DNA from: a virus
Lineage: Duplodnaviria > Heunggongvirae > Uroviricota > Caudoviricetes
DNA: 31,389 nt
Virus record (IMG/VR): IMGVR_UViG_2713896769_000025
Reading direction: 5' to 3' (one strand)
This document shows positions 15,001-18,000 of this stretch, in pieces. Each line of letters starts with the position of its first letter. Position 1 is the first letter of the stretch. The position numbers are program-made.

Positions 15001-18000
15001 CCAGTCGATTGAGTGCGTCGGCGATCTTCTGGCGCAGGTCAGTGGCGGTAATGTCATCCACGCCTTTGCGGTAGGTCTGAAACACCGTGGTAACTTTGGA
15101 TGGATCAACTTTGTAGGCAACACCGATGTGATAGCCGATGGTTGTGCCGTCACTCATCTGGAAGCTGAACGGCTCATCGTAGGTCTTCATTTGTTTGAAG
15201 GTTGGGAAGATGTAAACTTCAGTATTCCAGCCAGTCCAGTAGCGACCAACACCGACCACCTCACCGACGCCTTTATCGTCGCCCAGTTTATTTACTTTGA
15301 TGCCAACATTACCGGGTTCAACGCGATCGCAGCCGACAAGGCCAATGGTCGGCAGAACAATGGCTAAAGCAAAAATAATTTTTTTCATTTTTTATCCTTA
15401 GTGAAAGAAAGACCCTTGTAAATGGCATAAATGCAGGGCGGGGTCAGAAACGCCAGTGCAAAGCCAGAAGTAACTGCTATCGTATCCTTCATGGATATAA
15501 GGAACGGAACGAGTAATCCGTAAATGCATGCGATAATTGCCAGTAAAATTACTATTGTGAAATACAGTCTCATTGGTATGTGGTATCCCGATATTTTTAA
15601 CTGACAGACAGCGCAATAAAGAGAATAATGATTTCTGTTATTGTCAGTACTGTGGCAAGGATTAAAAGCAGTTTTACTCTGCTTAATTCACGGTTGTTTT
15701 TCATATAAATGGTTAGTAAAAAACGGAAGAATTATATTCTTCTTAATATTTAATGTGTCACTGGCCTTCTGGCATACCATGAGTATTCAGGTCGTTAATC
15801 ATTTCATCCAGAAGGAGTTCAAGCCCTTCTCGCCCCATGTCTGAAACAATGAAACCTTTATCTGGGTATGTAATGAGCATTTTCTGATAAAGAAACAGCG
15901 CTCTACCCATTCCTTCTGCCTCGCCGTATTTTTGAATTAAATTCCATTCAATATACTGCTGTAAGGCAAACCGAATGGGGCCGGGATATATCGTCATAAC
16001 CCCATGCTTCCCGTTATATATTACGGCGCGATCTGTTGTTCCGTGTTCATTCGGGACATCAATTGTGCCGTTCTTGTCTTCTTCTTCGTTGATGAATGTC
16101 GTCACATACAACCATCGCCACTGGGCAACCTTCATCTCAACCGGAAGTTTTCCCAGTAATCCTGCTTCGTCAGCTTGCGCGAGACACTGAAGGATACGTA
16201 AACCTCGCACATTAGGAGTATCGAATTCTCCAGCATCCAGACGGCGTATGGCGTCGTGATAATCAATAGTCATACTGCCTGTTTGTATACCATTGGCTGT
16301 TGCTTCAGCCTGGAATTCAGCGTATTGCATGAAATTTATTCCTCATCTTCATCTGCTGGTGCAATAACGTCATATCCTGCCTTTTCTGCAATAAACAGGA
16401 ATGTTGAAAGATTTCCTACAAATTCATCGTCATGAACATGACGAATTAATATTACTTTCCCGTTTTTGATGGTCAGCAATACTCTGGTTTGTTCGTGTTC
16501 TGCTGTTTTCTGATGCATTATTATCTCCCGTATGCTTTACGCAGAAACAAGCAGGCAATATGCATGTGATTTTTCCCGTGTTGTGCAATAAGGCAGGCTG
16601 TTTTGTGTGATGCCTTATGTTTTATAAAAGTCATAATAAAACCTCCTGTGGATTAAGTGTGTGATAATCCCCGGCGATTAAGCCGTAATATAGTATCTGG
16701 AGATGACTTGTTCTATTTAACTGGATAGTTCTTTTTCAGCTGCTGCTTCAGCATAGCAACGTGCAAATTCAAGAACTTCATCACCTGTTCTTTTTATTGC
16801 GTCGTTGTCTGACATTTGTAATACGATAACTGCGCATAATAAATTATGGATATTGTTTGCAAAGGAATCCGGTGCCAGGCATAAGCCTTCATACTTATCA
16901 TGGATATTGCCAGTCATTGTTGCTGCTCCTTTGCTTCTGATTTTCCCGTTAACAACCACATCAGGTCACAATTAAGCGCACTGGCCAGTGGTACTATATG
17001 ATCAGCAGGAACTTCACAGATGCCGCATTCCCAGTCGTTTATGGGGTCACTGTAGGTATGAATCATGCGGGCAAGATCAGATTCGGTTAATCCCAGCTTT
17101 GTACGGGCGCTTTTGATGCGTGCGCCAATACTTTCCGCATGGACTTCAGTCGTATTTACACGAATAGCTGACTCGCTGTTTTTTTCACTTAGTAGAGAAA
17201 GCGGATCGCATCCCAGGACGTTTGCCAGGGGGATAAGCATGCTGATGGTTGGCTCGAACTCTCCACTCTCCCATTGCAGAATAATCTCTTCGTCAAGATC
17301 GAGTAGTCTGGCTAGTTCGGTAGTCGTCAAGCCGCAGGCTTCACGTTTGGTGCGTATGCAGGCTATCTTGTTGCCTGATCGGATAGAATGTTGTTGTTTT
17401 GTCGATGCGATCGCTAAAGCATATTCATGAGTAAATTCTAGCACATCAAACCCAACCTCTTTTAATCGCGTATCATCTAGGAGGTTGAAGGTGCGAACAG
17501 CACTGAGCAGGTTTGCGATGGTTAATGCAAAAGAATCGAGATCTAAATCATCACATAAAACCTTGTTGTAAGTATTGAGGCTACATGTTTTTGGTGTTGT
17601 TTGTAAGGCTTCCATATCATCACCATGCAATTCTAAGTTGAAGTTAATCAATATATAATTGATGGTGAGATATTATGTGTCAGGAAAACGACTGTCAATT
17701 AAAAATTGATAAACTTGATTTTTTTGTGATGGATGACCAATAATTTAATTTAAAATCAATAACTAACCAAATCTGTTGATATTGAATGGTACAGATGAGA
17801 TTACTTTTGACTGGATATAGAGCAGCGCCATTCCCTCTTTTTCGATGCTCCATGGCTGATAGTTGGGATTGTCTGATAAGACCATGATCTTGCTTCCAAT
17901 TTTTTGAAGTCGTTTGACGTAACATTCGCCATCAAAGCAAAATGCATAAATGCCATCGCCGTCAAAGTAAGTTACTGTTTTATCTAAAAACAGTAAGTCT

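What the first reader, a model, noticed from the sequence alone, without database searches (positions are those of the whole stretch)
15718..16634. Terminator-bounded small operon (37-aa, 60-aa acidic, 190-aa proteins) of unknown function
Three closely packed minus-strand ORFs with good SDs, ending at a clear intrinsic terminator; none matches a family I recognise. The 60-aa protein has a strongly acidic tail (APADEDEE) and the 37-aa ORF is basic and His-rich. Its position between the immunity region and int is where lambdoid phages carry exclusion or host-takeover genes (cIII/kil/ral/sieB analogues), so it could be a toxin/antitoxin-like, abortive-infection or anti-host-defence module.
Basis: seen in the sequence. 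Interest (0 to 1): 0.55.

Follow-up and report, generated by a model that had tools for sequence, protein, structure and literature searches.

The report
Three uncharacterised early genes, Stx prophage
Three small, tightly packed genes of a Shiga-toxin prophage are real and conserved, but they are a shortened copy of a six-gene block of unknown function common in temperate phages, not a self-contained toxin/antitoxin or defence operon.

Summary
All three are real genes under purifying selection. The window is a long-tailed Stx2 prophage integrated at yecE. The 60- and 190-aa proteins are the phiP27 L07/L06 pair (phrog_340, phrog_1515; function unknown). The 37-aa ORF is left out of several annotations here, RefSeq included. 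It is nevertheless a conserved small protein found in Escherichia, Salmonella, Klebsiella, Cronobacter and Aeromonas phages, always stop-start coupled to the next gene.

The trio is not an autonomous operon. No promoter lies in front of it. The "clear terminator" is a weak AU-rich hairpin (-4.9 kcal/mol) that travels with the downstream cassette. The genes lie inside the leftward early operon that starts just downstream of cI.

Across 265 loci the trio is the reduced form of a collinear block, p37-X-Y-p60-Z-p190. In P4/PICI-like elements a p60-like gene, DUF4222 and a p190 homologue sit just upstream of a primase-helicase. The p60-p190 adjacency is therefore secondary, which argues against a toxin/antitoxin pair.

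Pfam, NCBIfam, PADLOC and PDB gave no match. The AlphaFold model of p190 is confident (pLDDT 96) but has no convincing match among solved structures. Function remains unknown; an early-lytic accessory role is my inference.

The parts
16521..16634 (-). p37: 37-aa basic small protein gene, head of the cassette. Not annotated in the RefSeq record (L001) nor in several phage records.
   Evidence: The ORF has an AGGAGG Shine-Dalgarno sequence. Homologues (MTFIKDK.AY.TA.L.A..G...IA.LYLRKAYGR) occur in phiP27, ASU11, Fels-1, ENT39118, AsXd-1, Klebsiella and other phages. dN/dS is 0.09-0.33, and a 6-nt indel stays in frame. Some pipelines call it 'hypothetical protein', for example ECO111_2446.
16642..16647 (-). 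Shine-Dalgarno sequence AGGAGG of p37
   Evidence: Read directly from the sequence. It is conserved as AGGAG or GAGAG in relatives.
16672..16685 (-). Small conserved hairpin (CGGC-UUAAUC-GCCG) about 40 nt upstream of the p37 start codon
   Evidence: In 9 distinct sequences 100% of cells pair, and 3 of 4 pairs show compensatory changes. 0 of 500 shuffles reach the observed score, and slid controls fall to 22-69% paired. The hairpin is absent where p37 overlaps the upstream gene.
16336..16518 (-). p60: 60-aa acidic protein, equivalent to phiP27 L07 (phrog_340). The start codon lies 2 nt after the p37 stop.
15758..16330 (-). p190: 190-aa acidic protein, equivalent to phiP27 L06 (phrog_1515). This allele carries a 1-nt deletion that removes the family's conserved C-terminal ...APVTH.
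15718..15742 (-). Weak terminator-like hairpin (15726-15742) plus U-run (15718-15723) after p190
   Evidence: Folding energy -4.9 kcal/mol, z = -0.5. Not found by the terminator scan. Present only where the p35/p62/SPFH cassette follows p190, and stem changes are uncompensated.
17670..17698 (-). Presumed leftward early (pL-like) promoter that would drive HTH245, p66, p37, p60 and p190 (context; inferred)
   Evidence: TTGACA-17-TAATAT, 10 of 12 matches. It is flanked by ATTAACTT/AAGTTAAT repeats that also occur in the cI-cro intergenic region.

Best explanation
The three ORFs are genuine, translationally coupled genes inside the leftward early (pL-type) operon of a phiP27-like, long-tailed Stx2 prophage. 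They are not an independent operon.

They are the shortened form (p37-p60-p190) of a collinear six-gene cassette (p37-X-Y-p60-Z-p190). That cassette is conserved in temperate phages of Enterobacterales and in one Aeromonas phage. Part of it (p60-like, DUF4222, p190) also lies upstream of primase-helicase genes in P4/PICI-like elements.

Proposed sequence of events:
1. When the CI repressor is inactivated, transcription from the promoter just downstream of cI reads through the dual-HTH gene and p66 into p37. (Inferred.)
2. Ribosomes finishing p37 restart 2 nt downstream at p60, whose Shine-Dalgarno sequence lies inside the last p37 codons. p190 starts 5 nt after p60. (The layout is shown; the coupling is inferred.)
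3. The products are one small basic protein (p37) and two acidic soluble proteins (p60, p190). None carries a catalytic or DNA-binding signature.
4. I infer that they act by binding other proteins early in lytic growth, as dispensable accessory factors of the host-takeover or counter-defence type. I do not think they protect the lysogen.

My split for the functional part: host-takeover or counter-defence about 0.4; replication or recombination helper about 0.2; regulator of anti-repressor type about 0.15; toxin/antitoxin or abortive infection 0.05 or less; the rest, other.
For: - Identity of the element: 100% identical to Stx2 phage Stx2_112808 and to prophages at yecE. p60 and p190 are annotated as hypothetical proteins there.
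- All three genes are under purifying selection.
- Stop-start spacing of 2 nt or an overlap between p37 and the next gene in all 11 phage loci examined, whatever that gene is.
- No promoter-like site in the gap upstream of p37. A pL-like promoter with operator-like repeats lies next to cI.
- Architecture census: 161 loci with p37-p60-p190 and 42 with p37-X-Y-p60-Z-p190, plus partial forms. In nearly all loci the genes keep the same order.
- Satellite-like contexts: p190 homologues lie next to primase-helicase genes. A p60-like protein or domain and DUF4222 lie upstream.
- Y (phrog_1737) resembles the core of p190.
- No hits in Pfam, NCBIfam, PADLOC or PDB sequences.
- p190 has a confident model with no convincing match among solved structures.
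- The phage has no recognisable recombination module in the left operon. It is strongly enriched in Chi sites: 12 observed against 0.84 expected. [quoted passage not shown]
Against: - There are no expression data. The promoter, the operators and the read-through are inferred from sequence alone.
- The census loci were fetched with p60 and p190 queries, so co-occurrence is inflated.
- A six-gene block that keeps its order from Aeromonas to Escherichia phages looks more like a life-cycle function than a typical patchy counter-defence island.
- The window's p190 allele lacks the family's near-invariant C-terminal His, so it may be impaired.
Confidence: 0.6

Rival explanations
1. Replication or recombination helper. 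p190, with p60-like partners, assists early DNA transactions. It might help load or regulate the replicative helicase or primase. Alternatively it might stand in for the missing Rec module in this Chi-rich, presumably RecBCD-dependent phage.
For: - In three independent satellite-like elements the p190 homologue lies 0-3 genes upstream of a Toprim/DUF927/D5_N primase-helicase gene.
- The cassette occupies the position that the Rec module holds in lambda and P22.
- The window is strongly Chi-enriched (PMC12315714).
Against: - In satellites all early genes share one operon, so adjacency to the primase says little.
- In phages the cassette is in the left operon, far from the O/DnaC/DnaB-type replication genes. 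It occurs alongside different replicon types.
- The proteins are acidic and have no nucleic-acid-binding or ATPase motifs.
- PMC12315714 found no universally present unknown gene in the early-left regions of phages lacking a Rec module.
Confidence: 0.17
2. Regulatory module of the anti-repressor type. p60, alone or with p190, binds a repressor or another transcription factor. The target could belong to this phage, a co-resident prophage or a helper phage. The effect would be on induction or on the lysis-lysogeny decision.
For: - p60 matches the C-terminal 42-48 residues of two PHROG families annotated as anti-repressors (phrog_4792 E = 1.6e-5; phrog_2379 E = 4.8e-4).
- A p60-like domain forms the C-terminus of a 213-aa protein in a satellite-like element.
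- Satellites and polylysogens are known to use small anti-repressors (my own knowledge: P4 epsilon, Gifsy GfoA/GfhA).
Against: - Only a short beta-beta-alpha module is shared. The N-terminal domains of those families are missing.
- PHROG labels are annotations, not tested functions.
- The annotated anti-repressors in the related loci do not contain the p60 module.
Confidence: 0.13
3. Toxin/antitoxin, abortive-infection or exclusion module expressed in the lysogen. This is the first reader's suggestion: p60 as an acidic antitoxin and p190 as a toxin or effector.
For: - A small acidic protein is encoded immediately upstream of a larger one, with tight spacing.
- The region also carries an SPFH lipoprotein cassette downstream.
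Against: - No PADLOC, Pfam or NCBIfam match for any of the three.
- The p60-p190 adjacency is specific to the reduced form. Elsewhere Z or DUF4222 intervenes, and either gene occurs without the other.
- No promoter of its own was found, and the position is downstream of a presumably repressed early promoter.
- Homologues lie in satellite early operons.
Confidence: 0.05

Closest known systems
Phage phiP27 genes L07 (P27p07) and L06 (P27p06), plus the unannotated ORF upstream of L07
   Same: Same three families in the same order and the same place: between an L08/p66-type gene and the small membrane-protein/SPFH lipoprotein cassette. Identities are 78% (p37), 53% (p60) and 71% (p190).
   Different: phiP27 L06 keeps the conserved C-terminal ...APVTH, which the window allele has lost through a 1-nt deletion. 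None of these genes has a known function.
Six-gene early-left cassette p37-X(phrog_8959/1478)-Y(phrog_1737)-p60(phrog_340)-Z(phrog_1886)-p190(phrog_1515) of Klebsiella, Citrobacter and related temperate phages and Aeromonas phage AsXd-1 (no p60 found there); Salmonella Fels-1 carries it without p190
   Same: Same families in the same order. The same p37 head gene is coupled to the next gene, and in several phages the same upstream hairpin is present.
   Different: The window lacks X, Y and Z, so p37 is coupled directly to p60, and p60 abuts p190. All six families are annotated 'unknown function'.
Accessory genes of the lambda and P22 early-left (pL) operon (cIII, kil, ral, sieB, gam, abc and others)
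   Same: Same genomic position (between the immunity region and xis/int). Presumably the same expression class (repressor-controlled, early).
   Different: No sequence similarity was found. This phage shows no N-like antiterminator gene at the head of the operon and no Rec module. That the Pfam library holds models for the lambda proteins is my own knowledge.
Early operons of P4/PICI-like satellites upstream of the primase-helicase gene (compare P4 epsilon-orf151-alpha)
   Same: p190 homologues, DUF4222 and p60-like proteins sit directly upstream of Toprim/DUF927/D5_N primase-helicase genes.
   Different: P4 itself gave no match in the phage collection. The window's trio is far from its replication genes.
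[quoted passage not shown]
   Same: No recognisable recombination genes were found in the early-left operon. Chi is strongly over-represented in the early-right region: 12 sites against 0.84 expected, 9 of them on the + strand.
   Different: The early-left genes of LLS itself (yfbR/yfdQ/yfdP type) belong to other families. That paper assigns no role to the cassette described here.

Membership tests
Type II toxin-antitoxin pair | Recognisable toxin or antitoxin domain in at least one partner | tested here: not met
Type II toxin-antitoxin pair | The two genes stay adjacent as a cognate pair across relatives | tested here: not met
   In the six-gene form Z lies between them. In satellite-like elements DUF4222 lies between them. 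Fels-1 has p60 without p190, and L006 and L009 have p190 without p60.
Type II toxin-antitoxin pair | Toxicity of one product, neutralised by the other | not testable with these tools
   Requires expression experiments.
Known anti-phage defence or abortive-infection systems (PADLOC-DB v2) | Match to a defence-system protein model | tested here: not met
   No hit at E <= 1 for p37, p60 or p190. Neighbouring genes gave only generic HTH hits.
Lambda early-left proteins (CIII, Kil, Ral, SieB, Gam) | Sequence homology | tested here: not met
   The Pfam and PHROG scans returned none of these families. That the libraries contain models for these proteins is my own knowledge, not checked here.
phrog_340 (unknown function) | Profile match over the conserved beta-beta-alpha core | tested here: met
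   p60 residues 2-59, E = 1.8e-21. The core motif RV.L.IENG.V...DE....TF...A..AG is conserved.
phrog_1515 (unknown function) | Full-length profile match | tested here: met
   p190 residues 1-189 against profile positions 12-199 of 203, E = 1.9e-92. The family-typical C-terminal His is missing in this allele.
Anti-repressor families phrog_4792 and phrog_2379 | Match across the whole protein, including the N-terminal domain | tested here: not met
   Only the C-terminal 42-48 residues of the profiles match p60 (E = 1.6e-5 and 4.8e-4).
Rho-independent (intrinsic) terminator | Stable G+C-rich stem-loop | tested here: not met
   A 7-bp stem with 2 G-C pairs, -4.9 kcal/mol, z = -0.5. Missed by the consensus scan.
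Rho-independent (intrinsic) terminator | U-tract immediately 3' of the stem | tested here: met
   CGUUUUUU follows the stem (15718-15725).
Rho-independent (intrinsic) terminator | Structure conserved, with compensatory changes, in relatives | tested here: not met
   Variants disrupt pairs without compensation (L020, L024, L032). The element is absent where other genes follow p190.
Moron (autonomous promoter-gene-terminator insert expressed in the lysogen) | Own promoter upstream and distinct base composition | tested here: not met
   No promoter-like site in 16635-16716. G+C is 0.37-0.46 against 0.40-0.51 for the neighbours.
Conserved early-left cassette p37-X-Y-p60-Z-p190 (defined here) | Same families in the same order, p37 first and coupled to the next gene | tested here: met
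   Of 265 loci, 161 carry the reduced form and 42 the full form, with partial forms besides. Apart from a few loci with an extra X-like ORF upstream of p37, all are collinear. Coupling is seen in all 11 phage loci examined. The sampling is biased by the queries used.

The most novel reading that the evidence does not exclude
p37, p60 and p190 are the minimal core of a widespread, so far unnamed early-gene cassette that takes the place of the recombination module in Chi-rich lambdoid phages. On this reading p190 is a fold not yet represented among solved structures, with a shorter paralogue (Y) in the same cassette. With the p60 module it would bind a host DNA-transaction or immunity protein, for example RecBCD, the replicative helicase or an NAD-dependent effector. 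p37 would be a conserved microprotein that gates translation of the cassette, possibly through the covarying hairpin upstream.
Probability: 0.1. Interest if true: 0.7.

Novelty: new member of a known kind. Interest (0 to 1): 0.35.

Why it matters
These genes sit in the early region of long-tailed Stx2 phages. Published work links variation in that region to how much toxin the host strain makes (PMC11333237). Two findings here can be used directly.

First, a conserved 35-38-aa protein gene is missing from the RefSeq and several phage annotations examined here, and matched no PHROG or Pfam family.

Second, the apparent small-plus-large gene pair is a deletion product of a longer conserved cassette. 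That warns against reading it as a toxin/antitoxin pair.

The cassette is present in many Klebsiella, Salmonella and E. coli prophages and in satellite-like elements. p190 has a confident model with no convincing match among solved structures. A single functional result would therefore annotate several PHROG families at once. As it stands, this is well-defined phage 'dark matter', not a surprise.

Tried and rejected
- Pfam, PHROGs, NCBIfam and PADLOC on the three proteins and on 55, 28 and 16 family members gave only unknown-function PHROGs.
- PDB sequence and profile searches for all three families gave nothing below E = 0.06.
- The AFDB50 library was not available, so no comparison with the AlphaFold database could be made.
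- Profile-profile comparison of p60 against p190, to test whether p60 is a detached p190 module, gave probability 0.5%. Rejected.
- Rfam found nothing in 15300-17800, even at E <= 5.
- Apparent domain fusions of p190 (P0073, P0100, P0109, P0157) have no Pfam domains. P0100 and P0109, and probably P0157, look like frameshift or read-through artefacts.
- The UniRef label 'DUF905' on one p60 homologue was not reproduced by the Pfam scan. Nor does Pfam find any domain in p190-family members that would support the 'polyprenylphenol hydroxylase' label on Klebsiella p190 homologues.
- The search for related loci with the wide p190 alignment failed because it had no conserved stretch. The genome-contig scan with p60 confirmed only 4 loci.
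- Literature searches by accession, locus tag, peptide motif and PHROG number returned nothing. The DUF4222 papers mention the domain only once each.
- A nut-site/N-protein reading of the hairpin and p37 was considered and set aside. p37 lacks an arginine-rich motif and is too short, no boxA was seen by eye, and the hairpin is absent where p37 overlaps the upstream gene.

Full report
**What the window is.** The region 15600-16750 is 100% identical to Stx2d phage Stx2_112808 and to prophages of E. coli O55:H7, O157:H7, O111 and O145 strains. In those genomes the prophage is integrated in yecE. The gene order on the minus strand is int, xis, a DUF4222 remnant, DUF5406, an SPFH lipoprotein, a 62-aa membrane protein, the 190-aa protein, the 60-aa protein, a 66-aa protein, a dual-HTH protein and the CI-like repressor. 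cro, replication genes, Q and stx2 follow on the plus strand. RefSeq and the phage record annotate the 190-aa and 60-aa proteins as hypothetical and do not annotate the 37-aa ORF.

**Check of the observation.** The three ORFs are at the stated coordinates.
- The Shine-Dalgarno sequences are real: AGGAGG before p37, GGGAG within the last codons of p37 before p60, and GAGGA before p190.
- The gaps are 2 nt and 5 nt.
- p37 is basic and has five His residues. p60 ends in APADEDEE.
- Neither of those features is conserved in the respective family.
- All three genes evolve under purifying selection. Against phiP27, dN/dS is 0.12, 0.21 and 0.14, with most changes at third positions. Among closer alleles p190 gives 0.1-0.25 and p37 gives 0.1-0.27.

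**The terminator.** The terminator is much weaker than described.
- It is a 7-bp AU-rich stem at -4.9 kcal/mol, no better than shuffled sequence (z = -0.5), followed by CGUUUUUU.
- The consensus scan missed it.
- In relatives the stem carries uncompensated changes.
- The element is present only where the p35/p62/SPFH cassette follows p190.
- Where other genes follow, they start 5-14 nt after the p190 stop, with no hairpin.

**Not an autonomous operon.** No sigma-70-like site lies in the 82-nt gap upstream of p37. In several related phages p37 overlaps the end of the preceding gene. The best promoter candidate on this strand is TTGACA-17-TAATAT at 17698-17670, just downstream of cI. It is flanked by ATTAACTT/AAGTTAAT repeats that recur in the cI-cro intergenic region. 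I infer that the trio belongs to a repressor-controlled leftward early operon. This has not been shown by expression data.

**p37 is a real, widely conserved small protein.**
- tblastn finds it in phiP27, ASU11, Fels-1, Cronobacter ENT39118, Aeromonas AsXd-1, Klebsiella ST16-OXA48phi5.3, EKP1 and several E. coli Hendrixvirinae.
- The consensus is MTFIKDK.AY.TA.L.A..G...IA.LYLRKAYGR.
- Synonymous sites are saturated between lineages while the protein is kept, and a 6-nt indel stays in frame.
- In all 11 phage loci examined its stop lies 1-4 nt before the next start codon, or overlaps it. The next gene's Shine-Dalgarno sequence lies in its last codons.
- That next gene differs between phages: p60 here, a 67-74-aa helical protein (X) in most, and a 117-aa protein in phage Fostie.
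- p37 has no PHROG, Pfam or PDB match. It exists in databases only as 'hypothetical protein'.
- Where an intergenic gap precedes it, a 4-bp hairpin with a 6-nt loop is conserved. Three of its four pairs show compensatory changes (CGGC/GCCG, UGCC/GGCA, CGCC/GGCG, CACC/GGUG). Its role is unknown.

**p190.** It belongs to phrog_1515.
- A word-indexed search saw only Escherichia relatives. A full HMMER search found 115 representatives at 50% clustering, mostly stand-alone proteins of 190-220 aa.
- None of 55 members has a Pfam domain, and there is no PDB sequence match.
- With that alignment AlphaFold gives a very confident mixed alpha/beta model (pLDDT 95.9, pTM 0.90).
- The family almost always ends ...P..P..H. 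The window allele has a 1-nt deletion that replaces APVTH with GQ, and the old PVTH-stop is still readable out of frame. The truncated allele is common and still under constraint.

**The key context result.** I scanned 265 related loci with profiles for seven families. The loci had been fetched with p60 and p190 queries, so they are biased towards these families.
- 161 loci carry p37-p60-p190.
- 42 loci carry p37-X-Y-p60-Z-p190.
- Many partial forms occur. In nearly all loci the order is the same.
- X, Y and Z are phrog_8959/1478, phrog_1737 and phrog_1886, all of unknown function.
- Y resembles the core of p190, roughly residues 66-190.
- Fels-1 has the block without p190.
- In three independent P4/PICI-like elements the p190 homologue lies directly upstream of a primase-helicase gene. 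In two of them DUF4222 and a p60-like protein precede it.

The window's trio is therefore a reduced cassette, and the p60-p190 adjacency arose by loss of Z. This is the main argument against a cognate toxin/antitoxin pair. The second argument is the complete absence of defence or toxin signatures.

**What it most likely does.**
- Shown: the genes are real, coupled in layout, conserved, and placed in early operons of temperate phages and satellite-like elements.
- Inferred: they are expressed on induction from the leftward early promoter. Being small soluble proteins without catalytic or DNA-binding signatures, they act by binding other proteins.
- My ranking: host-takeover or counter-defence accessory factors are the most likely class (about 0.4). 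A replication or recombination helper role comes second (about 0.2), suggested by the primase neighbourhood and by the lack of a Rec module in this Chi-rich phage. An anti-repressor-type regulator comes third (about 0.15).
- A toxin/antitoxin or abortive-infection role in the lysogen is unlikely (0.05 or less).

**Novelty and interest.** The sequences are already public, and two of the three families exist as unknown-function PHROGs. What is new is the recognition of p37 as a conserved gene, the six-gene cassette, the link to satellite-like elements, and the lack of any convincing match for p190 among solved structures. This is a well-delimited piece of phage dark matter in a medically relevant phage group. 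Nothing in it contradicts current understanding. Interest: 0.35.

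Noticed in passing
window 16672-16685 (-): Small hairpin (CGGC-UUAAUC-GCCG) upstream of p37. Its stem covaries across E. coli, Salmonella and other phages: 100% paired in 9 distinct sequences, with 3 of 4 pairs compensated. It is followed by a conserved GGGGAUU. Function unknown, and it is absent where p37 overlaps the upstream gene.
   Followed up: partly
window 15758-15775 (-): The p190 allele has a 1-nt deletion relative to phiP27. This replaces the family's near-invariant C-terminal ...APVTH with GQ. The ancestral PVTH-stop is still readable out of frame. 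The truncated allele is widespread and still under purifying selection.
   Followed up: yes
window 18980-26770: Twelve Chi sites (GCTGGTGG) against 0.84 expected, all in the early-right region and 9 on the + strand. No recombination module was seen in the early-left operon. This matches the 'no Rec module, high Chi' class of lambdoid phages described in PMC12315714.
   Followed up: partly
window 15597-15704 (-) and 15385-15573 (-): A 35-aa hydrophobic ORF follows the hairpin. It is conserved in phiP27 but has no Shine-Dalgarno sequence and dN/dS of about 1.2 on few changes, so its coding status is doubtful. The 62-aa two-helix membrane protein (phrog_1130) and the SPFH lipoprotein downstream form a separate cassette that other alleles replace.
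   Followed up: partly
window 16717-16917 (-) and 16914-17651 (-): The 66-aa protein (phrog_4587) resembles the N-terminal region of the neighbouring dual-HTH protein (phrog_4836 positions 24-71, E = 3.8e-5). This suggests a detached paralogue of that domain.
   Followed up: no
window 17633-17716 and 18484-18573: ATTAACTT/AAGTTAAT repeats flank the pL-like promoter and recur in the cI-cro intergenic region. They are candidate CI operators.
   Followed up: partly
window 19796-19984 (+): Rfam matches to the isrK Hfq-binding RNA (19796-19872) and the C4 antisense RNA (19897-19984). Both lie at the 5' end of the Ash/Rha-family gene, resembling a P1/P7-type antisense immunity element.
   Followed up: no
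window 27170-27418 and 28827-29086: Three tRNA genes lie upstream of stx2A. The sRNAs STnc100 (28827-29032, +) and AsxR (29034-29086, -) lie downstream of stx2B, as is known for Stx2 phages.
   Followed up: no
window about 14013-14117 (-): RefSeq marks a DUF4222 pseudogene here. In satellite-like elements an intact DUF4222 gene sits immediately upstream of the p190 homologue.
   Followed up: no
L095 4056-4634 and the Klebsiella phage records: p190 homologues in Klebsiella phages are annotated '2-polyprenylphenol hydroxylase related flavodoxin oxidoreductase'. Pfam found no domain in any of 55 p190-family members. The label looks like an annotation artefact.
   Followed up: partly
L006 3854-5004: A P4/PICI-like element carries a run of six small genes upstream of its p190 homologue. 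By eye, at least two of them (65 and 69 aa) resemble the cassette's X protein. Not checked with a profile.
   Followed up: no
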